A DNA stretch of 64,000 nt from a virus: the IMG/VR virus record IMGVR_UViG_3300010396_000007, positions 34,678-98,677 of that record; one strand, 5' to 3'. This document shows positions 52,866 through 64,000 of the stretch, in pieces; positions within the stretch are counted from its first letter, which is position 1; every line of letters starts with the position of its first letter. A program made the translations under genes and the position numbers. The notes beneath the pieces are model-generated. The model was not told where the DNA came from, did not search any database, and saw nothing but the letters and a program-made list of their open reading frames with translations.

Positions 52866-53202
52866 TGAATTTGGGCGTTTTTTGGCTAGGGTAGGACGTT
52901 TTTATCGCCCCCGATGCCATACAGAGCTTTATAGGAATTTCCATTCTAATATACTACATAGGGTATTCTAAAGGAGTTATGAGCCATTCTCAAATTGAGA
53001 AAAAAGCGAATAAATAGCGAACGGTTCCAAGCATGGCGAGCGCATCTATATAGAGCATGAAAAAAAAGTTGTTGCATTAGAGCTTTTCTATGCTAGACTC
53101 TGTTACATGAAATCAATCATCGAATATCGAAACGAGTTAGTAATTGGAATCGGCATGGCTGCATTTATCATCGGATTTGCAATTCAACTAGGATGGTAGA
53201 CA

Positions 53203-53592
53203 ATGAATCAACGTAAACACGTCTCACAGATGAGCCTAGAGGAAAAGCAAGCTCTAGAGAGCTTTGCCCATTCTCTACCCCGGTACAATTGGCAGCATAA
53301 CCCGCATGTGAGTCAACGGATGATCGAAAAGCGTATATCGGAGCATGAGCTAACGTTAGCATTGCGCAAGGGTACAGTAATTGAATGCCATGCCAACAAT
53401 TACCCCGATATACGCTTTGTACTCCGGTACACGATAGGGAATCGCGCTATATGTGCTTGCGCGTCACATCGGGGTAACGTAGTAACGGTTTGGGCTAACA
53501 ATGCATCGGATAACCATAAGACGTTAGATGCGTCACAGTATCAGTGGAAAGCAGATTTAACACGCGTATTGGATACGCTGAAAAGAGGATAA
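53203..53592 (+). CDS. DUF4258-like protein
   Basis: HVSQRMIEKRISEHELTLALRKG.VIE...VVTVW. Confidence 0.6.
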   Translation: MNQRKHVSQMSLEEKQALESFAHSLPRYNWQHNPHVSQRMIEKRISEHELTLALRKGTVIECHANNYPDIRFVLRYTIGNRAICACASHRGNVVTVWANNASDNHKTLDASQYQWKADLTRVLDTLKRG

Positions 53593-53783
53593 CCCATGCT
53601 TTTAACAGGTAACTGGTATAAAATGAACTTTGAGCGTAACGGGGATATTGTTACCATTACGATTAAATCAACCCGTAATTCATGGGGGACAAAGATTAAA
53701 CTAGCCGTTAGCCTAGCCGAAAGAATCAGGGACGGATTAAATCTAACCCTCTAACCCATAGGGGCATAGTTGCCCCTGATCTA

Positions 53784-54041
53784 TTGGAGGATAGCACTAT
53801 GGTCGTTGTTCTAGTAATTCTCGCCTTTATCGCCGTATTTGCTGTAACGGTGATTGCGTTAACCATACACAATGCAAAGCAAGCGGATAAGCTAGCCAAA
53901 CTCGAAGAACAAAAGCAAGCTCTTACATTGCTAGCACATGCAATGGAATATCTCACTAAAGAGGGCATTGGATATAACCTTGAATGGACTAGCGCGCGTG
54001 TGATACTCGAAACCGCTATGTATAACGTATTGTATACATAG
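53784..54041 (+). CDS. Small membrane protein
   Basis: N-terminal TM helix; likely ATG 53799. Confidence 0.55.
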   Translation: MEDSTMVVVLVILAFIAVFAVTVIALTIHNAKQADKLAKLEEQKQALTLLAHAMEYLTKEGIGYNLEWTSARVILETAMYNVLYT

Positions 54042-54126
54042 GGTTTAAAATGGGGGTTGCATTATGCCCCCTGATCTAGTAATCTTGTATGGTATCAATT
54101 TGCAGTAATGAGAGGACGGGGAAAAG

Positions 54127-55689
54127 ATGACGAAATTTGCAAAGCAATTCAAAGCAGCACATGCTGTGAGTACTCCACTGGTAACGGTGCGCACATTTGA
54201 CGCAAAAAGCACCATTGACCATGTTTCTACCATGCCGTTACGCTTTAAGGATAAGGACGATAACCCCATTTTCGCCCCTGCTACAGAGCATGTATCTATC
54301 ATTGTTTGGGATTGTATATACGGCATGGTCGCGAAGAATGATAGGGGCAAAGCTAGCCTTAAACAAGCTTTGAGCACTATTGGTGTGCCAAGCTTGGATG
54401 CTACCGCAGATTTACCCATCGCCTTAAGGGTTGCAGGGGTTATAGGGGAGGACGTGATTCTATTCCTCTCTAATGCACATCTTTGGTGGAGTGAAAGAGA
54501 AATCATTCAAGGGGTTTGGAATTTGCGCGATAGCTTTAAGCTCTGGGGTTCTATGCTTGTTTTGCTTACAGGTAACGGCGCTATTCTACCCTCAGAGCTT
54601 ACAAACGATTTTCTAGTATTAGATGAGCCATTACCCACTAAAGAGGATTTGACGGGCATTATCCGGGATACATTCGAGTTTGCCTCACTTTCTGCCCCGT
54701 CCGATGCCGTTATAAACGATGCCGTTAAAGCTCTTACGGGTTTGCCTGCATTCATCGCAGAGCAGAGCACAGCTATGTGCTTGGATATAGATGCTGCCAA
54801 GCTAGACTTGGATGGGCTATGGGAGCGCAAGCGTACCGCGATTAATCAAACGCGTGGACTCACAGTACTCCAAACCGATGCAAACCTTGATAACATCGGG
54901 GGTTTAGAACAGTTCAAGCAATATCTAGAGCGGATTATGAACGGTAAAAACCGTCCTAACGTGATTTGCCTATGGGATGAAATTGAAAAGAGCTTTGCAG
55001 GCATGGGGACCGATACATCAGGAACAACTACAAAGATGGGTGGAAACATCCTTACATGGTCTAACGATATCGCCATGCAGGGTATTATTGCGCTAGGCGT
55101 ACCGGGGGCAGGTAAAACGGAAATCGTTAAAGCTATCGGCAACAAATACGGGGTTTTAGTTATCGCCGTTAACCCTGCCGATATGGAATCGGGCATTGTC
55201 GGCAGTAGTAACGAATATCTCCGTAATGCACAAGCTATGCTTGACTCCATTTCAGACAAGAAAATTCTATCCATTGCCACATGCAATAAAGCAGAATCAT
55301 TGTCCCCAGAATTGAAAAGACGGTTTGCCAATAAGGGGTTGTTTTTCTTCGATGCGCCTACAGAAACAGAGCGCAAGAGCATTTGGGATATCTACATTTC
55401 GAAGTACAAGCTTGATGCGCAAAACATGCCTAACGATAACGGTTGGACGGGGGCGGAAATTAAAGCATGCGCGATGCAAGCATACGATTTGAATATCTCG
55501 CTTGAAGATGCTAGTAAATATGTCGTGCCCGTTACGGTGTCCGATGCCTCTACAATCGAAGCTTTACGGGTTTACTGCTCGAATCGTATGCTTTCGGCAT
55601 CATACCCCGGAACGTATACGTATAAAGAGCAAGAAACCCCCTTGCAGGGGCAGGAAACCATATCTCATACGGGCCGGAAGATGAGATAA
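54127..55689 (+). CDS. Ycf46-like AAA+ ATPase with rearranged Walker motifs
   Basis: VICLWDEIEK (54961) precedes GVPGAGKT (55096); ATCN sensor 1, PELKRRF, WTGAEI. Confidence 0.85.
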   Translation: MTKFAKQFKAAHAVSTPLVTVRTFDAKSTIDHVSTMPLRFKDKDDNPIFAPATEHVSIIVWDCIYGMVAKNDRGKASLKQALSTIGVPSLDATADLPIALRVAGVIGEDVILFLSNAHLWWSEREIIQGVWNLRDSFKLWGSMLVLLTGNGAILPSELTNDFLVLDEPLPTKEDLTGIIRDTFEFASLSAPSDAVINDAVKALTGLPAFIAEQSTAMCLDIDAAKLDLDGLWERKRTAINQTRGLTVLQTDANLDNIGGLEQFKQYLERIMNGKNRPNVICLWDEIEKSFAGMGTDTSGTTTKMGGNILTWSNDIAMQGIIALGVPGAGKTEIVKAIGNKYGVLVIAVNPADMESGIVGSSNEYLRNAQAMLDSISDKKILSIATCNKAESLSPELKRRFANKGLFFFDAPTETERKSIWDIYISKYKLDAQNMPNDNGWTGAEIKACAMQAYDLNISLEDASKYVVPVTVSDASTIEALRVYCSNRMLSASYPGTYTYKEQETPLQGQETISHTGRKMR

Positions 55690-55752
55690 ACCCATTCCGG
55701 GGGTTGCAATATTACCCCCGGTATGATCTAATCTAGTGAGATGAGGTAAGCA

Positions 55753-56181
55753 ATGAGCGCATATAGCACAAATCAAACGCAATTCCGGGAATTGCCTTTA
55801 CTGCTGAAAGCATTAGAGGAAATGGGATTTGATGCTTCAAAGGTCGAAGTACACGAAACCGCGCAACCTTTGATAGACTTTCAAGGTCATCGTACACATT
55901 ATGTGGACGCTACCGGGGATAAGGCGGAAATTATCATCCGTCGTAAGTATGTAGGCGGTATGGCTAATGATATCGGGTTTAGGAAAACGGCATCGGGGAC
56001 CTATGAAGCTATCATTTCCGCCTATGATAGCAGCAGGTATTCTCAAGCATGGTTAGGTAAGTTATCTGCTGCATACGCTCGCCATGGGTTGATAGTTAAG
56101 ATGGCTAGCAAGGGTTTTAAGTATGCAGGTAATGGGGTTAAACAGGGAACTAAAACCCAAATGCAATTTGTGAAAGCATAG
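55753..56181 (+). CDS. DUF1257-like protein
   Basis: MSAY...LLKALEEMGF...AEIIIRR...DIGF...YEAIISAYD. Confidence 0.7.
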   Translation: MSAYSTNQTQFRELPLLLKALEEMGFDASKVEVHETAQPLIDFQGHRTHYVDATGDKAEIIIRRKYVGGMANDIGFRKTASGTYEAIISAYDSSRYSQAWLGKLSAAYARHGLIVKMASKGFKYAGNGVKQGTKTQMQFVKA

Positions 56182-56198
56182 AGAGGACGAGGGCAGGT

Positions 56199-56393
56199 AT
56201 GGCTCAAATTGTAAAAGTGACCGTTGACGATAATACCGGGGAATTCGACGTTGATTTAACGGGGTTCCATGGTAAAGGTTGTGACGCAATCATTGCAGCA
56301 TGTGGGGAGCTTGGAGAGATTAAAACCCATATCCACAAATCCGAGTATAACGAAAAAGAAAAAGTTACCATCGGCAGGGTTGTAAAGCAGTAA
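56199..56393 (+). CDS. DUF2997-like protein
   Basis: V.VD..GE..VD..GF.G.GC......LG......SEY. Confidence 0.7.
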   Translation: MAQIVKVTVDDNTGEFDVDLTGFHGKGCDAIIAACGELGEIKTHIHKSEYNEKEKVTIGRVVKQ

Positions 56394-56456
56394 ACATTTC
56401 GGCTAGGGACCGTTTACACGGTTTAAACATCCTAGCCGAATGATCTAGAGGTAAGC

Positions 56457-56786
56457 ATGAATCACGTTACTGTAAGCTTGGATGAGTCTACCGGGGATTA
56501 TACCTTTTTGGTATCTGACGATACACGGAGCTTGCTAGACGCTACCAGTACCGTTAGACGCGCGTCCCATGTAGAACCCGTTAACCCTATCGCGCGCGCT
56601 GCATTCTATACGCTCCGTGCATTGTTTGGCGAGTATGGCAGGGTTGCAAGTTTTACACGGGTTTGGGGTTGTCTATGGCGAGTAAATCTCTCTCCGGTAA
56701 ACGGTCCGATACTCCCCGATACATACCGCGATAGGCAAAAAGCGATAGACGCTGAAATCATATGGTTGGAAAATAACTTTTTATAG
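56457..56786 (+). CDS. Hypothetical protein
   Basis: GAGG RBS; RRASHVEP...W.V.L....GP.L....DR..AI.AE..WL. Confidence 0.6.
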   Translation: MNHVTVSLDESTGDYTFLVSDDTRSLLDATSTVRRASHVEPVNPIARAAFYTLRALFGEYGRVASFTRVWGCLWRVNLSPVNGPILPDTYRDRQKAIDAEIIWLENNFL

Positions 56787-56861
56787 CTTGCACGGGGTAA
56801 CGATCATACTGTATATTCGTATACAGTAATAAATTTCGATTTGAGAGGACGGGTTAAACCC

Positions 56862-57907
56862 ATGGAAATAACGGAATTAAGCAGTATGGCAGCATCGTAG
56901 AAAAGACAGTTTTGCTCCGTGTATCATTCCGTACCATCGGCAATTCTCGCAAAGTGAATACACGGAGCTTACTAAAGCTCTCCCCTGCCGCTAATGGGGC
57001 ATTACTGAAAATTCAGAAAACCCTTTTTGAATCAAAAGAATTACAGGCAATTACCAAAGCAGATAACGAATTGCGCGCAACCCTGCATAATATGTGCGTC
57101 CCCTATGATATGGGGTTAGATTTACTTCCCCGTCAAAGCGTAGACAATGCGCGCGCGATTATGATTGAATACCGGGGAACCCGTAAGGAGCTTGTCAACG
57201 TATTTGTGGCAGCATACCCCGAATTGCAAAAAGCTACAGAGGATAGGTGCATTATCCTTGCCTCAGAGCTTGGAATTCCCGTGGAATACCTTTATAACCC
57301 TGCCGATTATCCCCCGGTTGAGTATGTTGCAGGCAAATTCGGGTTTGATTGGGATTTCCTTGAATTGACGGTCCCTGATGAGCTTAAGATGAGCGGAAAA
57401 TTCCAAGAGGCATCTGAGGAATTAGCGTCTAAGATTTCGAACGTTACCGAGGAAATCACGCTGGTAATGCGTCAAAGCTTGCTAGAGCTTGTAACGCACC
57501 TTAAGCAAGCATTGGAACCCTCTACCGATGGCAAGCAAAAAAGGTTGCACGCCACTACGGTCACTAACTTGCAAGATTTTCTCGCAACCCTCCCAAGCAG
57601 AAACATTACCGGGGATACAGAGCTTGAAAAGCTTGCAGGGGAGGTTAGCAAGCTCATTACCCCCGGAGTCAATACGGATATCCTCAAAAAGGATGAAGCT
57701 TTCAAAGCTAGCGTTATTGAGTCCATGGGCAATGTAGCAGGGGAACTAACTAAACTGGTAGAGATAGTACCGGGAAGAAAATTTAGGGGGGCAGGGGCGA
57801 AACCCATTACCCCCGTCTCTACCCCGGTAGAGTCTACCCCAGAGATACCCCTGCAAGATTTGCTTATCCCGTCCGATGAAACCCTTGCGCAAGTAATGCA
57901 GGGGTAA
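56862..57907 (+). CDS. DUF3150-like protein; 5' end appears frameshifted
   Basis: LLP, F...YP, YNPADYP...KF.F motifs; RBS-linked ATG 56862 is out of frame with the long ORF (TTG 56912). Confidence 0.6.
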
Positions 57908-57928
57908 ATTCTCTCAATTGCAGTACCT

Positions 57929-57960
57929 AACCCCCGGATAATACCGGGGGTTGTTTTTTG
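57929..57960 (+). terminator. Rho-independent terminator
   Basis: aacccccgg-ataata-ccgggggtt-gttttttg. Confidence 0.75.
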
Positions 57961-58268
57961 TGCTAACAATGCCCCTAGAAACGCGCGCTGTAAAAAAGTG
58001 ATACCTAGGTATCACCCATGCCCTATCGACGCAAATAAACCGTTTTATCTTGCGAAGAATTCACGCTATTTGGAATAGGTTTTATGCAATGGGCAGGGTT
58101 GAATCTAGTAAAGCGATTCAGTAAAGACTTTACTAAATACTTTACTAAAACGATTTTCTAATTCTAATCGGATTCCGGGGTTTGCTAGGGTAATTCCTTA
58201 TACAGTAATGTCACATGGAACATGCTGGTACTAGTGTGGTACTCATGGTACTACCCAGAAAGTTGTAT

Positions 58269-58297
58269 TTGCATTCTGTAAAAGCTCATGGTACTCT
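58269..58297 (+). promoter_or_regulatory. Early sigma70-like promoter (TTGCAT-17-TACTCT)
   Basis: Related promoters near 53072, 54057, 58649, 59480, 61085 and 63481, several with TGG before the -10. Confidence 0.65.
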
Positions 58298-58695
58298 GAT
58301 TATGCAAGTGAGGACAGCATGAGCAAAACGGAAAAGCTAATCGTATTGGATACGCTAGCGAGCACACTAGGGTTGCTCAATAGCCTAAATATGGAAGATT
58401 TAACCCCGTTGCAGCAAGTAATGCTGCCGATTGTTCGTCTCGACTTGGAAACTTCGCACAAGATTGTATTGGAAGAGGTAATAACATGACTCCTAAAAAG
58501 TTTAGCGCAGTAACGCAAGTTAAAATGATTAGCAGGCAAGTTATCGGGGTTGTCCCTGCTACAACCTTTGTACCTAACAAGAAGCGCAAGCCTCTCAAAC
58601 ATGTGAAACGCGAGCGCGATTCATGGCAGTACTAACTCGAAAGTTGTATTGAGTACCGGGGAACATTCTGGTACTCTGATCGAAAGTGAGGACAC

Positions 58696-58899
58696 ATGGA
58701 AGCTACAATGATTGCCCGTAAGGTCACAAAGAACTTTACGACCTATGGCGAAGCGGTTTCTTTTCAGGATGGCGTTAATGCCGCACTGGGGTTGCTTGGA
58801 AGTGACGCGACAGTGACGTTAGGTAATATTCTTCCATTGGAAGTATCAGGTTACACCACAACTATTACCGCAGAGCAGGATTTCCGGGAGGACTTGTGA
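58696..58899 (+). CDS. Hypothetical early protein
   Basis: GAGGACAC-ATG. Confidence 0.55.
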   Translation: MEATMIARKVTKNFTTYGEAVSFQDGVNAALGLLGSDATVTLGNILPLEVSGYTTTITAEQDFREDL

Positions 58900-59081
58900 C
58901 ATACGAATTAGCACGAGTGAGGGCGCAGGTACTAGCGAATAGGTTACAGCGTAAGGTTTCCGTGTATCGCTCCGACTATGGTACAAACCCTTATCATGCA
59001 TCGCACATTATCCCAGTATGGGGCAAGCCTACCGGGGACCATTTTACCCCGGAGCCTCAGAAAGGCATGGATGGACTGTGA
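58896..59081 (+). CDS. Hypothetical early protein
   Basis: GGAGG, coupled GTGA start. Confidence 0.5.
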   Translation: MTYELARVRAQVLANRLQRKVSVYRSDYGTNPYHASHIIPVWGKPTGDHFTPEPQKGMDGL

Positions 59082-59217
59082 AAGCTCAAACTGTCAAAAC
59101 AGAAATCATGGGTATTCCTGTGGTACTTAAGGTACTGGGAAATACGACCAAACTGGTACGAGTGGAGGGTAAAAAACCTTATGCCCGATGATGAAGATTT
59201 CACGAGAGAGGACGGCG

Positions 59218-59505
59218 ATGACCCAGACTTCAACGAAATTTGACCGTGTAACATGGTTAGCCGAAATCCTTGCTATCCTTGATGAGTCACAGGGAATTCG
59301 AGAGCGCTTGGATGAACTTAATAAGCGCGTGCAACGTTGTTCTCCGGTATTATCTTTAGGTCCTTCTATTAGGAATCTTCTGTTAGTAGAAAAGATTCTG
59401 GGGGATGCAGTGGATAATGATTTAGCAGAAACGGCCAAAAATCTTTCAAAGATTTCCACAGAAAAAAGCAAAAAAGTAGTTGACAATCAACCAGAAGATT
59501 GGTAA
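59218..59505 (+). CDS. Hypothetical early protein
   Basis: GAGAGGACGGCG-ATG. Confidence 0.55.
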   Translation: MTQTSTKFDRVTWLAEILAILDESQGIRERLDELNKRVQRCSPVLSLGPSIRNLLLVEKILGDAVDNDLAETAKNLSKISTEKSKKVVDNQPEDW

Positions 59506-59796
59506 AGTTAGGACATCAAAGGAGAGGAAACCTAGAGCATCCCGGAGATAGGGACCGAACCTAATAACTATGCACTGTAGCCAAGCAATCGACAGCTATG
59601 GAGGGGTTATGATACCGAGCAGGGAAAGCCTGCTGATGGGGACAGACGGAATTAGTCCCCTGATCTGAAAGAGAGGGAATATGGGCTGGAAAGAAACGTT
59701 GTATCGTGGCACACTCCACGTACTCTATTCGCTCGCAGGGTTGAGCTTGATATACGGGTTGCTCTTACCTGCAATCTTTACACATGGAGGGCGGTA

Positions 59797-60102
59797 ATGC
59801 CGAGTCTTACAGGACAAACATTAGTAGCATTGATAGAATCATCTGGATTTGAGCCAAGCTCTTACAGTGGGGGCGGAATGTATGGTAAGGAATGCGTATC
59901 TGTACGGGGAGTACGGGGAGATGTTACTCCATGGGATGTGGCGTGGAATCTTGCCATGACGGTGCAGGATGAGCACGAGGGCAGCATTTATATACCAGAG
60001 CCGCGCATTGACTCTCTTGGACTGGGAGTAATTATATACTGGCCTAGTGTCGAATGGCCTAAAGAAACCGGGAACGATAATGCGGAGGGTGGCAATGGCT
60101 AA
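59797..60102 (+). CDS. Hypothetical early protein
   Basis: SYSG.GMYGKEC...DSLGLG.I.YWP phage-type motif. Confidence 0.65.
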   Translation: MPSLTGQTLVALIESSGFEPSSYSGGGMYGKECVSVRGVRGDVTPWDVAWNLAMTVQDEHEGSIYIPEPRIDSLGLGVIIYWPSVEWPKETGNDNAEGGNG

Positions 60103-60387
60103 CGTGTACGCAGTACTCAGAACCCGTTTGCAGGATGTGAACCGTCCTATCGTGTGCTCGCTAGATGATGAAGAGGACGAACCCAGAGAGGCTAACCCGG
60201 AGCATGATTGGGTTGCATTGGAACTTTTTGTAGGATTCATTATCGTTCTAACCATGCTCTGTAACGTGTAACACTAAAAGGGGATTGTCCCGAGAGGGTA
60301 ATGAGACTAGGATGCTTCCTAGACAGTCCCCGACAAAAACAAACTCTGGTACTAGCGATCTGTAAAAATCTTTCTAGGAGAATGACC

Positions 60388-60585
60388 ATGGATAAGACAG
60401 CATTGGAAACGACAGAGAGCATCTTGGGGCATATCGTGGCGAGTGGCAAAGGTGAGGACAGTGACCCACGCGGGGATTACTCTAAGGCATACAGCGAGGC
60501 TTTTACCCTTGTCGCAGCCGCGCAGAGTGTGGTGAGGGCAGAGCAAAACCTGCAACACATTGTCAGCGCATACAAGGCGCTGTAA
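60388..60585 (+). CDS. Hypothetical early protein
   Basis: AGGAG RBS, MDKTALETT... Confidence 0.5.
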   Translation: MDKTALETTESILGHIVASGKGEDSDPRGDYSKAYSEAFTLVAAAQSVVRAEQNLQHIVSAYKAL

Positions 60586-60613
60586 AACCTAGGGGCGCAA
60601 TGCCCCTGATCTT

Positions 60614-60856
60614 ATGCTAACCTGCATTCATTGTGAGCAAGCGATACGTCCACCGGAGCCGAACACGGATGAGACTTACTATCGCCACATCGAAACAAAT
60701 CAAATAGGCTGCTATGAGTGGGGACAGGAGCCATATGCAGAACCGAGTGAGGGAGCTTTCACGGATTATGTTGCAGAGCTTCCTATTAGTAAGACTAAGG
60801 ACGTAAAGGTTGCAGTAAAAGTTATTACCCCAAGCAAAGGACGGAAATTCAGATGA
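60614..60856 (+). CDS. Small Cys/His protein with C-terminal GRKFR
   Basis: CIHC...H...C...AEP; ends PSKGRKFR*. Confidence 0.6.
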   Translation: MLTCIHCEQAIRPPEPNTDETYYRHIETNQIGCYEWGQEPYAEPSEGAFTDYVAELPISKTKDVKVAVKVITPSKGRKFR

Positions 60857-61136
60857 GCAGTGAAGTAATCCAAGCATTCTTGGACAGCGATTACAGCGAT
60901 GCTATTGATATTGTGGAGCATCTTGACAACGACCAGCGTTTAGCCCTATCGCTTGCTCTGGAAAGATTTAGCGAAGCGCTAGACGAAACCAGACGCGAGA
61001 GAGGGGTTGCGTGAGAATACTTTACGAGTTTCGCATCGGCAGTGATAAGGTAATTGTTTTTAAACCGAGCAAGTAACTTTTCACTTGACACTCAACAAAT
61101 CCATGTGGTACTAATAGTAATGAATGGAGGATACAA

Positions 61137-61418
61137 GTGTTTGTAGGAATTGATTTTCCAAGTTTGTTTGACAAGGATAACTTTACACTGCGTCGTACTA
61201 CCGGGCATAACATGCACGACCCGGAAAGCTTTATCACAGGTAAGGAACTTGCGCAGGGTTATACCTATACAAATTCCCGCAGGAATTGGGCAAATGAGAA
61301 ACATTATCTTGCGGCAGTTGTCGGATTCCTTACCCTTGAGGAGATAGCAAAGACCGCTCCGCGCATCTCCTATATGCCTGAATGGATTTCAACGGCAGTA
61401 CCGGAGAGTGCGCTGTGA
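61137..61418 (+). CDS. Hypothetical early protein
   Basis: GGAGG-GTG behind a TTGACA promoter. Confidence 0.5.
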   Translation: MFVGIDFPSLFDKDNFTLRRTTGHNMHDPESFITGKELAQGYTYTNSRRNWANEKHYLAAVVGFLTLEEIAKTAPRISYMPEWISTAVPESAL

Positions 61419-61597
61419 CCGTCGAAACGTTAGTACATGGTCCCAAAGAGTTTGCAGTAACCTTGCAGTATAAGGAACTTGCGCAACCTATCACCGAAAC
61501 CTTTTATACGGAGGATTGAGTTAGAAGCATTCCTCAAAGGCATCGAAATTGCTTCGCATTATATGGGAGCACCAACCCTAATACACAAGGTATTTCC

Positions 61598-61849
61598 ATG
61601 ATTCGAATTATCACCGAGGACAAAAACCGGGAAGGAATATATCGTATCCTTAGTAACCATGCGGCAGATAGCTTTACAGTAATCCCTGCCGTGGGGTTTT
61701 GGAAAGGCGAAAAAGAGAATGCGCTTGTTATCGAGATAGTAGGCGCATCTCTTGAGACTGGTACTGCCATCGCGCAATCCATCAAAGGATGGAACCAACA
61801 GGAAACTGTACTGGTACAGTATATACCAGTAGAATCGAGATTCGTGTGA
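61598..61849 (+). CDS. Hypothetical small alpha/beta protein
   Basis: FTV....GFWKG..E...VIEI...NQ.TVL. Confidence 0.55.
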   Translation: MIRIITEDKNREGIYRILSNHAADSFTVIPAVGFWKGEKENALVIEIVGASLETGTAIAQSIKGWNQQETVLVQYIPVESRFV

Positions 61850-62262
61850 AAGTGTATCAAGTACGCATTGGCGGCAGTGGGTCAATCCAAGAGCAGATTT
61901 ACCGTCTCATTGCCGAGAGTCTGGACGCAGCCGAGCAGTCAGCAGTATTCGGCCACGATGTAGCTATTCACGGACCTATCAGCTATATTGCAGTTAGTGT
62001 AGCCTAGAGGTAGAGAATGGAAAAACCTTGTAATTGTGGCGTATCAACGAATATTGCCGACGAGATTTCATGTGGTACTGGGGAACTGGACTTTAATGGA
62101 TTCTGGGAATTCCCGTGTACTCATGGTCTAGAGGAATATTTCGAAGCTAAGTTGAAAGAAGACAAAGAAAATAAAACGGGGCAGTAATGCCCTGATCTGC
62201 CGAGCAAGGCGCTTCCCTATGGGTTGCGCGAGACTACAACCAGCAACCCATAGAGAGGAGCA

Positions 62263-62463
62263 GTGATGACCGTTAAGCGTCCAAAGATTCATTGGAAGAA
62301 GTACCTTACCCGCAAGATGTTTATTCTTGCAGTGTTCGCGGTGGCGGGTTATACCATCGAACACTTTTTCCACATTTGGTTTCTTGGCAAGGGTGCGGAG
62401 TTTGCAGTTGCTACCATTGTCGAGCACACCATTTTCGATATCCCAATGGAAGGTGTAAGCTAA
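62263..62463 (+). CDS. Small membrane protein
   Basis: GAGGAG RBS, hydrophobic segment. Confidence 0.5.
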   Translation: MMTVKRPKIHWKKYLTRKMFILAVFAVAGYTIEHFFHIWFLGKGAEFAVATIVEHTIFDIPMEGVS

Positions 62464-62735
62464 TGCACATCGACCATCTGGAATTCGCGGAGCCTACAGA
62501 TATGTGCGAAATCCATGCGGGGACGTTCTACTGGACTTCCCCGCAAGGACAAGACACTGTGACGCAGAGTTTTACGTTAAGACGTTAAGACTTGCGCCGA
62601 TGATACGAACAAATCCAAGCGCGTTGATGACTTGAATGAGCAGATGACGGATGAGTGGTCTAACCTCATCTGTGAGGGTAACACTAACATTCGGTACGTT
62701 GAAATCGTACCTAACCCTATCTTCTAGGAGGACTC

Positions 62736-63206
62736 GTGGAAAAGTATTTTTACCATGGAACCATCGACAAGTTTGTCCCGGAAATTCTGTCCGAGGGATT
62801 GCAGCCAAAGAAGCAAAACGGATGGAATGCTTACATGGAAACGTTTTTCGGCAGCAAGATTAACCCTGCAAAAGATGATGTACCGGGGTTCGTGTATATG
62901 ACTTCTGACGAAGCGTGGGCTAACCGTTACGCTGAAGGGAAAGCAGCATACTTTCGTGCTAAACCGGGAACCCGTTTTACCATTGGGAGCCTTGAAATGC
63001 AAAAAGCATTAGATGCCCCGGTTATACCTGATGCAGTTGGTACTATCCTACGCATCAAAGCCGAGCCACAGATTTACTTTAATTTGGTGCGAGATGAGCG
63101 TGATTCTATGGGCCGCAAACTACACGGACACGTACCCCCGGAGCTAATCGAAGTGGACAAAAACCCGACTAAGCAGTTAGAGGGACTTGCAGCAGAGCTT
63201 TCCTAG
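62736..63206 (+). CDS. Tpt1/KptA-like (ADP-ribosyltransferase fold) protein
   Basis: FYHGT...ILSEGL.P...VYMTSD...A..YA...ILRI...VPPELI. Confidence 0.6.
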   Translation: MEKYFYHGTIDKFVPEILSEGLQPKKQNGWNAYMETFFGSKINPAKDDVPGFVYMTSDEAWANRYAEGKAAYFRAKPGTRFTIGSLEMQKALDAPVIPDAVGTILRIKAEPQIYFNLVRDERDSMGRKLHGHVPPELIEVDKNPTKQLEGLAAELS

Positions 63207-63542
63207 CACTACAGACTATAGCGCCCGACACAGGGTAGCAGTCTGATCTGAAAGGAATTAAGAATGAACAACGTGAGGGTAAACACAAATCAAGGCAATG
63301 TAGAGTTGAAATGGGACAATAACGGCAGAGGTATTATTGATTCCGACGCTATCACAGCGTTCGAATGGGGGCATTGCCATAGCTTCGCCTAGAAGACACT
63401 GATATAGCAGCGGCTAAAGAATTTGCCGAGCAGTGTATATGCGCTGGAAAAGAAAAAATCGTCGCAGTGCTAGAAAGTGCTTGACAAAACGTAGCACATT
63501 TGGTACTATAGAAAGCGTACAAGATACGCAGAAGGAAAGAGA

Positions 63543-63875
63543 ATGAAGCAAACCAGCAAAGCTTTTACAGATACGGATTTTGTAGTCAGGCCGCAGGACC
63601 CGCCCGCGTTCGAAGAGGATATTGACGCCGCAGAGGATACAGGTGGGTTCAAGATTGAGCAGGTAGAGATTCCCAAACGTAGTAACGTTAAGAAGACTCT
63701 AGCCTATCCGATTGGTACTCTCAAAGCAGGCAGCAAAGATTCGTTCTTTGTTCCTACAACCCCGGAAACTGCAAAGGCGATTACTTCGAGTATTCGAACC
63801 TTTGCTTATCGAAATGGATTTAAAGCAATCATACGCCAAGAGAAACTTGGTGTAAGAGTTTGGAGAAAGGAATAA
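63543..63875 (+). CDS. Putative small DNA-binding phage protein
   Basis: IP...YP...L..G..DSFFVP...GVRVWR motif. Confidence 0.6.
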   Translation: MKQTSKAFTDTDFVVRPQDPPAFEEDIDAAEDTGGFKIEQVEIPKRSNVKKTLAYPIGTLKAGSKDSFFVPTTPETAKAITSSIRTFAYRNGFKAIIRQEKLGVRVWRKE

Positions 63876-63877
63876 TC

Positions 63878-64000
63878 ATGGAACTGAAAGATAAAAATGG
63901 TGCAGTAGTTTTTGCATCGGAAGATTTTAGCTTGGTGGAAACATTAGTCAAAGCCGCTAAAAGTAAGTATAATTTTGACTTTAGTCGAATTGTATTGAAT
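63878..64000 (+). CDS. Partial ORF (runs off the right edge)
   Basis: AAGGA RBS, MELKDKNGAVVF... Confidence 0.5.
   Translation, partial: MELKDKNGAVVFASEDFSLVETLVKAAKSKYNFDFSRIVLN

What the first reader, a model, noticed from the sequence alone, without database searches (positions are those of the whole stretch)
53760..63250. Eight intergenic hairpin+TGATCT elements punctuating the early region
Seen: a GC-rich stem-loop followed within 0-2 nt by (or overlapping) TGATCT at 53777, 54072, 55724, 56441, 59661, 60607, 62193 and 63244 (e.g. AGGGGCA-tagt-TGCCCCTGATCT; CGGCTAGG...CCTAGCCGaaTGATCT; CAGACT...AGTCTGATCT). All are on the + strand, between genes, usually shortly before an RBS or start. 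Stems vary in sequence but keep pairing, and there is no U-tract, so they are not ordinary terminators. Inference: RNA-processing or protein-binding signals, hairpin promoters, or recombination sites delimiting single-gene cassettes.
Basis: partly seen in the sequence, partly recalled or inferred. Interest (0 to 1): 0.78.

Follow-up and report, generated by a model that had tools for sequence, protein, structure and literature searches.

The report
Hairpin-plus-TGATCT elements between phage genes
Eight short GC-rich hairpins, each followed at once by the same six letters TGATCT, sit between early genes of an uncultured soil phage; they are real and non-random, probably mark where the phage's long messenger RNAs are cut or stabilised, and may be read by a small RNase-like protein encoded in the same operon.

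Summary
All eight sites exist at the stated coordinates. Each is a stable hairpin with no U-tract, followed within 0-2 nt by TGATCT, on the coding strand, in a gap between co-directional genes or in a 5' leader. TGATCT alone is at chance frequency, but no other six-letter word follows intergenic hairpins more than twice. The genome is a 98.7-kb phage distantly related to Tunturiibacter phage Tunturi_3. No phage RNA polymerase or sigma factor was found. Host-type promoters drive the region and ordinary hairpin-plus-T-run terminators close its operons, so these are a separate class.

My best reading (about 0.35) is intercistronic RNA processing and stability sites, cut in the single-stranded AUCU tail. 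An RNA-level signal of some kind is about 0.7.

A new lead: the first gene of the operon holding four elements encodes a DUF4258 (RelE/MqsR-fold) protein. Among some 240 related loci its homologues occur only in two other phages, and both also carry hairpin+TGATC[T/G] elements. The background is 3 in about 1,400 gene junctions.

Unexplained: TGATCT is the most strand-skewed hexamer genome-wide (32:3), whatever the gene direction.

There is no RNA-end evidence, and the closest relatives could not be fetched.

The parts
53759..53782 (+). E1: 8-pair hairpin (4-nt loop) plus TGATCT, between a 52-aa gene and an 80-aa membrane-protein gene
   Evidence: The upstream stop ends at 53754 and the next ATG is at 53799.
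54052..54077 (+). E2: 6-pair hairpin (8-nt loop) plus TGATCT, between the 80-aa gene and the AAA ATPase gene
   Evidence: The upstream stop ends at 54041 and the ATPase ATG is at 54127.
55697..55729 (+). E3: 8-pair hairpin (9-nt loop), 2 nt, then TGATCT, between the ATPase and DUF1257 genes
   Evidence: At this junction relatives carry a hairpin+T-run terminator, often with a TTGACA promoter.
56398..56446 (+). E4: 11-pair outer stem with an inner stem, plus TGATCT, between DUF2997 and a conserved 109-aa gene
   Evidence: The nearest relative G001 has only about 24 nt and no element at this junction.
59638..59666 (+). E5: 6-pair hairpin (11-nt loop) plus TGATCT in a 5' leader, 14 nt before a 38-aa gene
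   Evidence: It lies about 150 nt downstream of the TTGACA-17-TGGTAAAGT promoter at 59480.
60590..60612 (+). E6: 7-8-pair hairpin plus TGATCT; the ATG of the next gene (80 aa) follows after 1 nt, with no Shine-Dalgarno sequence
   Evidence: No earlier in-frame start is possible.
62177..62198 (+). E7: 7-pair hairpin (4-nt loop) plus TGATCT; the stop codon of the upstream 56-aa gene lies in the loop
   Evidence: The + strand fold is 3.9 kcal/mol better than the - strand fold.
63212..63249 (+). E8: 6-pair outer stem with an inner stem, plus TGATCT, between the 156-aa gene and a 42-aa ORF
58652..58682 (+). Possible ninth element: 11-pair palindrome followed by TGATCG. It coincides with the -35 to -10 region of a promoter, so it may instead be an operator.
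   Evidence: The sequence downstream resembles that after E5 and E8.
53203..53592 (+). Candidate trans-acting factor: a 129-aa DUF4258 / BECR-fold (RelE-MqsR-like) protein, first gene of the operon that holds E1-E4
   Evidence: Pfam PF14076, E 6.8e-6, above its cut-off. The AF2 model has pLDDT 89.5. Best structural matches are MqsR at Z 5.9, the colicin E5 RNase domain at Z 5.6, then colicin D, BrnT, RelE and YoeB. Homologues occur only in G001 and L141 among the fetched loci.

Best explanation
The elements are RNA-level punctuation marks inside polycistronic early transcripts made by the host RNA polymerase.

Each consists of a structure-only hairpin. Its sequence is free, its pairing is kept, and the first two letters of the motif close its foot. 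An invariant single-stranded AUCU tail follows.

Inferred mechanism: a sequence-specific endoribonuclease cuts in or next to the tail. The upstream cistron is left with a 3' hairpin that blocks 3' exonucleases. The downstream cistron is left with a short leader holding little more than its ribosome-binding site, and for E6 an almost leaderless AUG. Neighbouring genes thereby get separate stabilities and translation rates. T7 achieves the same with host RNase III sites, and T4 tunes early mRNAs with RegB.

The nuclease may be the phage's own DUF4258 (RelE/MqsR-fold) protein encoded at the head of the operon, or a host enzyme.

Shown: the anatomy, the non-randomness, the position inside operons, the absence of a phage polymerase, and the co-occurrence with the DUF4258 gene.

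Inferred: that RNA is the acting form, that cleavage occurs, and who does it.
For: Orientation and position:
- All eight lie on the coding strand in gaps between co-directional genes or in a leader. Hairpins start 4-10 nt after stops, and the motif ends 1-64 nt before starts.
- E1-E4 lie inside one operon that ends in a canonical terminator at 57928.
- The region is driven by TTGACA-17-TGGTAnnnT promoters. No sigma or T7-type polymerase family was found.

Structure:
- Stems differ in sequence but keep pairing.
- The + strand RNA fold is the more stable in 7 of 8, through G-U pairs.

5' ends:
- The E6 gene has no SD and starts 1 nt after the motif.
- The genome also has a promoter placed 6 nt before an ATG, so leaderless starts seem to be in use.
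- The base after the motif is a purine in 7 of 8.

DUF4258 link:
- The DUF4258/BECR protein heads the operon (family status from PMC11980606).
- Its homologues among about 240 related phage and Acidobacteriota loci are only in G001 and L141.
- L141 carries two hairpin+TGATC[T/G] elements in the same operon, within 5.5 kb. G001 carries one, directly before an RBS.
- Background is 1 in 922 junctions in other phage loci and 2 in 476 in bacterial loci.
Against: - There are no RNA 5'/3' end data.
- There are only eight copies and two further lineages, and G001 is the nearest relative, so it is not independent.
- G001 shows no enrichment (1 element in about 24 junctions) and has other tails after similar hairpins.
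- Firmicutes phages encode 29%-identical homologues of the protein, yet Bacillus phage DZ1 has no GATC at all. Any link is therefore not general to the family.
- RelE-superfamily proteins may be ribosome-dependent, or may target tRNA or gyrase instead.
- TGATCT shows a genome-wide DNA-strand polarity that is independent of transcription direction. This hints at a DNA-level reader of the same word.
- Most intergenic hairpins in this phage group lack T-rich tails (18 of 397). Lack of a U-tract is therefore weaker evidence against termination here than it would be in E. coli.
Confidence: 0.35

Rival explanations
1. Weak or factor-dependent transcription attenuators. The hairpins stop a fraction of host polymerases after each gene, giving a step-down expression gradient, and TGATCT serves as a pause or factor-binding element in place of the U-tract.
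For: Hairpins start right after stop codons and look like terminator stems. At the ATPase/DUF1257 junction, relatives carry true hairpin+T-run terminators. U-tract-less intergenic hairpins are the norm in this phage group. No canonical terminator exists between 58 kb and the end of the window.
Against: An invariant hexamer is not explained by hybrid weakness; the tail has only 3 U in 6. Four elements precede conserved module genes that have no promoter of their own. E5 sits in a leader directly before its gene. Canonical terminators are used where units really end.
Confidence: 0.17
2. Translational operators. A phage or host RNA-binding protein binds hairpin+AUCU next to the ribosome-binding site and represses or activates translation of the downstream gene. 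This would resemble T4 RegA, coat-protein operators, or Com of Mu.
For: In five of eight elements the Shine-Dalgarno sequence begins 1-13 nt after the motif, and in E6 the AUG follows after 1 nt. The invariant tail with a free stem sequence fits a protein that reads shape plus a few bases. UGAUC is complementary to the GAUCA stretch of the 16S rRNA 3' tail (established knowledge).
Against: E2 and E7 lie 49 and 64 nt from the start codon. For 16S pairing TGATCC would fit better than TGATCT, yet T is invariant. No candidate RNA-binding regulator was identified other than the RNase-fold protein.
Confidence: 0.13
3. DNA-level elements: REP-like or recombination/nicking sites read on one DNA strand (hairpin plus adjacent fixed word, as HUH/Y1 enzymes read their sites). 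They would spread by duplication and mark places of gene gain and loss.
For: TGATCT is the most strand-polar hexamer genome-wide (32:3), irrespective of gene direction. Hairpins fall into look-alike groups (E1/E6/E7 and E2/E3), suggesting copying. E1 and E2 bracket a gene absent from all relatives, and E4 is an insertion relative to G001.
Against: E3 and E4 lie between syntenic conserved genes. Stems are not one conserved family as REPs are. There is no inverted partner of the motif as in attC. The + strand RNA fold is favoured by G-U pairs. The 24 hairpin-less TGATCT copies show no shared context. No matching multi-copy contigs were found in IMG/VR.
Confidence: 0.12
4. Promoters for a phage-specific transcription system, either N4-type hairpin promoters or a compact phage-polymerase promoter ending at TGATCT.
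For: The base after TGATCT is a purine in 7 of 8. At the candidate ninth site the predicted start of a host-type promoter falls right after the motif. The elements sit just upstream of ribosome-binding sites.
Against: No T7-type polymerase or sigma family was detected and no giant virion polymerase ORF is present. Loops vary from 3 to 22 nt and stems from 6 to 11 pairs. No conserved -10/-35 or -24/-12 spacing is present (by inspection). Six conserved bases are too few for a promoter.
Confidence: 0.04

Closest known systems
T7 early-region RNase III processing sites (R0.3-R1.3)
   Same: Hairpins between early genes of a host-polymerase transcript. They cut it into monocistronic mRNAs and leave a protective 3' stem.
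   Different: T7 sites are long irregular duplexes of about 20 pairs or more, read by shape alone, with no invariant flanking word. Here the stems are 6-11 pairs and a fixed hexamer follows.
T4 RegB endoribonuclease and its GGAG targets
   Same: A phage early gene product that cuts a short fixed motif lying in intergenic regions next to ribosome-binding sites of early mRNAs.
   Different: The motif differs (GGAG, within the SD), the protein fold differs, and no obligatory upstream hairpin is involved. Cleavage here is only inferred.
MqsR and other BECR-fold (RelE/ParE superfamily) mRNA interferases
   Same: The 129-aa protein matches Pfam DUF4258 of this superfamily. Its model aligns best with MqsR, a ribosome-independent sequence-specific mRNase.
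   Different: There is no conserved antitoxin partner in L141 or G001. The target is unknown and structural Z is only 4-6. MqsR reads GCU, not a hairpin-flanked hexamer.
Intrinsic (Rho-independent) terminators
   Same: A GC-rich hairpin placed a few nt after a stop codon.
   Different: There is no U-tract and an invariant non-U-rich tail. The elements are internal to operons, and the genome uses canonical terminators elsewhere.
Bacterial REP/BIME elements
   Same: Repeated extragenic hairpins with an adjacent short conserved word, lying between co-directional genes. REPs are known to act as mRNA 3' stabilisers.
   Different: REP stems are one conserved sequence family with a 5' GTAG-type word and occur in both orientations, with a RAYT transposase. 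Here the stems vary and all copies share one orientation.
T4-type PeSL cassettes (promoter-early stem-loops) and phage N4 hairpin promoters
   Same: Repeated stem-loop motifs punctuating small early genes.
   Different: PeSLs contain an early promoter. N4 promoters have a fixed 5-7-pair stem with a 3-nt loop and need the virion polymerase. Neither feature is present here.

Membership tests
Intrinsic terminator | GC-rich stem-loop | tested here: met
   Stems of 6-11 pairs, MFE -10.8 to -22.5 kcal/mol.
Intrinsic terminator | U-rich tract (about 5 or more U in 8 nt) directly after the stem | tested here: not met
   None of the eight is reported by the terminator scan on the + strand. The tails hold 3-6 T in 12 nt.
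Intrinsic terminator | Sits at the end of a transcription unit | tested here: not met
   E1-E4 lie inside an operon that ends at the canonical terminator at 57928. No promoter fits between the element and the next gene.
N4-type hairpin promoter | Fixed 5-7-pair stem with a 3-nt loop and conserved loop bases | tested here: not met
   Loops run from 3 to 22 nt and stem sequences differ.
N4-type hairpin promoter | Phage-encoded (virion) RNA polymerase | tested here: inconclusive
   PF00940 and PF04542 gave no hit in the genome, but the PF00940 control rang nowhere. The largest ORFs are about 1,000 aa.
RNase III processing site (T7 type) | Long duplex of about 20 pairs or more, with an internal loop | tested here: not met
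   Stems are 6-11 pairs.
REP/BIME | One conserved palindrome family with a conserved 5' tetranucleotide, in both orientations | tested here: not met
   There are at least five different stem sequences, and all copies share one orientation.
REP/BIME | Associated RAYT (Y1 transposase) | not tested
   No family search for Y1 transposases was run.
Integron attC | Paired core sites (RYYYAAC / GTTRRRY) forming the stem ends | tested here: not met
   TGATCT has no inverted partner upstream of the hairpins.
T4 RegB target | GGAG motif as the cut site, plus a regB gene | tested here: not met
   The invariant word is TGATCT. The candidate nuclease has a different fold.
rrn/lambda boxB-boxA antiterminator | boxA consensus with the CUCUUUA core | tested here: not met
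   Only TG.TCT is shared, and the bases after the motif are not conserved.
Any Rfam family | Covariance-model match | tested here: not met
   No match up to E 5 in 53000-64000 on either strand.
DUF4258 / BECR-fold toxin (the 129-aa protein) | Pfam PF14076 match above the gathering score | tested here: met
   26.7 bits against a cut-off of 25, E 6.8e-6. Precomputed PF14076 is recorded on 8 of 11 homologues.
DUF4258 / BECR-fold toxin (the 129-aa protein) | BECR fold | tested here: inconclusive
   The top structural rows are almost all BECR RNases (MqsR, colicin E5/D, BrnT, RelE, YoeB), but Z is only 4-6. Foldseek E is above 0.2.
DUF4258 / BECR-fold toxin (the 129-aa protein) | RNase activity and a cognate antitoxin | not testable with these tools
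   A 52-aa gene follows in this phage. In L141 the ATPase gene follows directly, and in G001 other genes follow.

The most novel reading that the evidence does not exclude
A phage-encoded RelE/MqsR-fold (DUF4258) endoribonuclease has been turned from toxin into an mRNA-maturation enzyme. It recognises a shape-only hairpin plus the tail AUCU and cuts the phage's own early polycistronic transcripts into separately stable, separately translated units, including leaderless ones. This would be a self-contained processing system comparable to RegB or Cas6 but built on a toxin fold.
Probability: 0.18. Interest if true: 0.8.

Novelty: new variant of a known kind. Interest (0 to 1): 0.55.

Why it matters
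How tailed phages that rely on the host polymerase set different expression levels for neighbouring early genes is known for only a few model phages, such as T7 with RNase III and T4 with RegB. Here a compact signal that is easy to mutate, a free-sequence hairpin plus a fixed hexamer, punctuates the early genes of a phage from a barely studied host phylum (probably Acidobacteriota). It comes with a concrete candidate reader.

If the DUF4258 protein cuts these sites, three things would follow. It would give the first function for a 6,000-member toxin family whose target is unknown (PMC11980606). It would show a toxin fold recruited for phage mRNA maturation. And it would supply a small programmable RNA-cutting pair.

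If instead the word is read on DNA, as the genome-wide strand polarity hints, it would point to an orientation-dependent host defence or a phage nicking system.

Tried and rejected
Searches and tests that led nowhere or argued against an idea:

- **Rfam.** Nothing in 53000-64000 at E up to 5, so no known ribozyme or leader.
- **Close relatives.**
  - megablast of the region against phage records gave no match.
  - A single-protein scan of IMG/VR found none.
  - Profile scans found only relatives at 61% ATPase identity or less.
The contigs of the 65-89%-identical ATPases and of the 52-91%-identical DUF4258 proteins could therefore not be read.
  - Profile scans for the DUF4258 protein in IMG/VR returned only G001, and the scan of GTDB genomes returned none.
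- **Exact-pattern scan of IMG/VR** for the E1/E6-type hairpin+motif: 110 single hits and no contig with several, which I estimate to be chance level.
- **Family-wide motif after intergenic hairpins** in about 160 related loci: no TGATC enrichment. Early 'hits' were coding tandem repeats.
- **Antisense partner** for the C-run plus motif: none in the window.
- **Promoter readings.** Inspection found no consistent -35/-10, extended -10, sigma-54 spacing or MotA-like box plus -10.
- **16S rRNA pairing.** UGAUC pairs with GAUCA of the 3' tail, but TGATCC would pair better than the invariant TGATCT.
- **boxA, attC, CRISPR-repeat mimic and tRNA-like minihelix** were considered and dropped because defining features are missing.
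- **Cassette breakpoints.** Only E1 and E2 coincide with a variable gene.
- **Covariance model.** None was built. Loops of 3-22 nt align poorly with MAFFT, and a descriptor search (hairpin plus motif with at most one mismatch, both strands, whole genome) had already returned the eight sites, the 58677 candidate and a few weak one-mismatch in-gene hits.
- **Firmicutes-phage homologues of the 129-aa protein.** Bacillus phage DZ1 has no GATC at all, so the co-occurrence does not extend to them.

Full report
**Setting.** The window is the last 64 kb of a 98,677-bp IMG/VR phage record whose ends repeat 30 bp, so it is effectively a circular assembly. Late and structural genes lie on the - strand. 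A + strand block runs from window 39.9 kb to the end and on into the first 28.5 kb of the genome.

The only named relative is the podovirus Tunturiibacter phage Tunturi_3 (ATPase 41% identical; PMC11924767). The nearest IMG/VR record, G001, has a 61%-identical ATPase. Homologues of the AAA/DUF1257/DUF2997 module, at 42-46% identity, are chromosomal in many Acidobacteriota MAGs. That points to this host phylum.

**The observation.** TGATCT occurs 26 times on the + strand and 3 times on the - strand of the window, which is no more than chance in total. The other 18 lie in genes without hairpins.

- Stems have 6-11 pairs and loops 3-22 nt.
- MFE is -10.8 to -22.5 kcal/mol, with z from -1.2 to -4.2.
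- Seven hairpins begin 4-10 nt after a stop codon, or overlap it in E7. E5 lies in a leader downstream of the promoter at 59480.
- The motif ends 1-64 nt before the next start codon.
- In six elements the first two motif bases pair at the stem foot. The invariant unpaired part is therefore AUCU, followed by a purine in 7 of 8.
- Among intergenic hairpin ends genome-wide, TGATCT is the only hexamer that recurs: 5 by a strict automatic mask, against 2 or fewer for every unrelated word.
- No copy lies elsewhere in the genome.
- A one-mismatch candidate at 58677 coincides with a promoter.

**What they are not.**
- Canonical hairpin+T-run terminators close units at 57928, at about 51470, and at genome position 27960. 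The host-type termination signal is therefore in use, and the elements differ from it.
- TTGACA-17-TGGTAnnnT promoters are spread over the + strand blocks.
- No sigma-70 or T7-type polymerase family is detected. The polymerase control did not ring anywhere, so that negative is weak.
- Rfam finds nothing.
- Loops and stems are too variable for N4-type promoters. There is no inverted copy of the motif as in attC, and the stems are not one family as in REPs.

**Surroundings and relatives.** E1-E4 lie inside a single operon: DUF4258 gene, 52-aa gene, E1, 80-aa membrane gene, E2, ATPase, E3, DUF1257, DUF2997, E4, 109-aa gene, 331-aa gene, terminator.

- At the ATPase/DUF1257 junction, Tunturi_3, L014 and L007 have a hairpin with a T-run, in Tunturi_3 and L014 followed by a TTGACA promoter. 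G001 has a hairpin with another tail.
- At the DUF2997/109-aa junction, G001 has only about 24 nt.
- E3 and E4 therefore sit between syntenic genes, which argues against cassette boundaries. E1 and E2 do flank a gene that no relative has.
- The motif is not a family-wide tail of hairpins, nor a feature of Acidobacteriota loci.
- Tunturi_3 has its own local family: a variable hairpin followed by a conserved box of about 20 nt.

**A candidate reader.** The first gene of the operon (53203-53592) matches Pfam DUF4258 above its cut-off. A 2025 survey places this family in the BECR/RelE-ParE superfamily and says its target is unknown (PMC11980606).

- A confident model (pLDDT 89.5) aligns best with MqsR (Z 5.9). 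Next come the colicin E5 RNase domain, colicin D, BrnT, RelE and YoeB. The theme is consistent but the scores are modest.
- In about 160 phage loci and 80 bacterial loci built around the ATPase, iterative searches find this protein only in G001 and in L141, a 5.5-kb soil contig whose ATPase is 39% identical.
- L141 carries, in the same operon, a hairpin followed by TGATCG before a ribosome-binding site. It also has a perfect 7-pair hairpin followed by TGATCT, and a third hairpin with a two-mismatch tail.
- G001 has one hairpin+TGATCT directly before an RBS.
- Under strict rules (hairpin just after a stop, start within 90 nt, same strand) the background is 1 in 922 junctions in other phage loci and 2 in 476 in bacterial loci.
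- This association is suggestive but small. G001 is not independent, and 29%-identical homologues in Firmicutes phages do not come with the motif: phage DZ1 has no GATC at all.

**Mechanism.** I favour RNA-level punctuation, roughly 0.7 in total, for four reasons:
- coding-strand orientation;
- tight placement between stop codon and ribosome-binding site;
- free stem sequence with kept pairing;
- G-U pairs that make the + strand fold better in 7 of 8.

Within that, endonucleolytic processing with a protective 3' hairpin (0.35) best explains three things:
- the invariant single-stranded tail;
- the E6 gene, which has no Shine-Dalgarno sequence and starts 1 nt after the motif, in a genome that also places a promoter 6 nt before an ATG;
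- the RNase-fold gene at the head of the operon.

Attenuation (0.17) and translational operators (0.13) remain open.

**An unexplained complication.** TGATCT is the most strand-skewed hexamer of the whole genome (32:3, z 4.9). The skew is 16:3 in the late region, whose genes run the other way, and 16:0 in the + strand blocks. Relatives show no such polarity. The bias is therefore tied to the DNA strand, not to the sense strand, and it keeps a DNA-level reading alive (0.12).

Separately, all RGATCY sites, CGATCG and TGATCA are absent (141 expected). RGATCY and CGATCG are also absent in G001 and G002, which looks like restriction avoidance shared by the group.

**Limits.** There are no transcript data. 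No covariance model was built.

**Verdict.** This is a real, lineage-specific element class, a new variant of intercistronic hairpin signals. It comes with a testable link to a toxin-fold RNase.

Noticed in passing
whole genome (window 1-64000 plus L176, L177): TGATCT is the most strand-polar hexamer: 32 on the + strand against 3 on the - strand. The bias holds in both gene orientations (16:3 and 16:0). Relatives G001-G005 show no such bias. It could reflect a one-orientation rule like T7's against type III restriction, strand-specific nicking, or a polar DNA signal.
   Followed up: partly
whole genome; also G001 and G002: All RGATCY sites (four hexamers), CGATCG and TGATCA have zero copies against 141 expected, and GATC overall stands at 0.27 of expectation. 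RGATCY and CGATCG are also at zero in G001 and G002. This probably reflects avoidance of type II restriction systems shared by the hosts of this phage group.
   Followed up: partly
whole genome: CCGAG against its complement is 71:15, the most skewed 5-mer. GCCGAG is 33:5 and CCGAGC 30:4. This is a second strand-polar word of unknown meaning.
   Followed up: no
window 58225-58300, 58649-58682, 61085-61120, 63481-63509: TGGTACT boxes serve as extended -10 elements of TTGACA-type promoters. Three copies lie within about 30 nt at about 58228-58256. An 11-pair palindrome spans the -35 to -10 region of the promoter at 58649 and is a possible operator. TGGTACT is 23:6 strand-skewed.
   Followed up: partly
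L005 5524-10480 (Tunturi_3 record about 73.6-78.5 kb): Tunturi_3 has its own repeated early intergenic element: a variable hairpin followed by a conserved box of about 20 nt that holds a small palindrome, then the RBS. There are 4-5 copies, alternating with TTGACA promoters.
   Followed up: partly
window 53203-53754: The DUF4258 (RelE/MqsR-fold) gene is followed by a 52-aa gene that could be an antitoxin. The relatives L141 and G001 lack that partner. Full-length 27-30%-identical homologues occur as unannotated genes in Bacillus, Brevibacillus, Geobacillus and Staphylococcus phages.
   Followed up: partly
L289-L368: The AAA ATPase of the AAA/DUF1257/DUF2997 module has 42-46%-identical chromosomal homologues, sometimes several per genome, in many Acidobacteriota MAGs (Bryobacteraceae, Terriglobia). 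This supports an Acidobacteriota host and a cellular origin for the module.
   Followed up: no
window 56787-56911: The 125-nt gap before the 331-aa gene holds an AT-rich 8-pair palindrome at about 56808-56827 and a promoter-like TTGCAC/TATATT pair. An ATG at 56863 runs into a stop after 12 codons, so the long ORF starts at a TTG (56912). This could be a sequencing frameshift or a real upstream mini-ORF.
   Followed up: no
window 59570-59668: A 32-codon ORF without an RBS in the E5 leader ends in a TGA that overlaps the last base of the E5 motif. It is probably not a gene.
   Followed up: no
window 62205-62262: Between E7 and the next gene lies a second perfect 11-pair hairpin that ends right at the Shine-Dalgarno sequence. 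It is a possible translational control structure.
   Followed up: no
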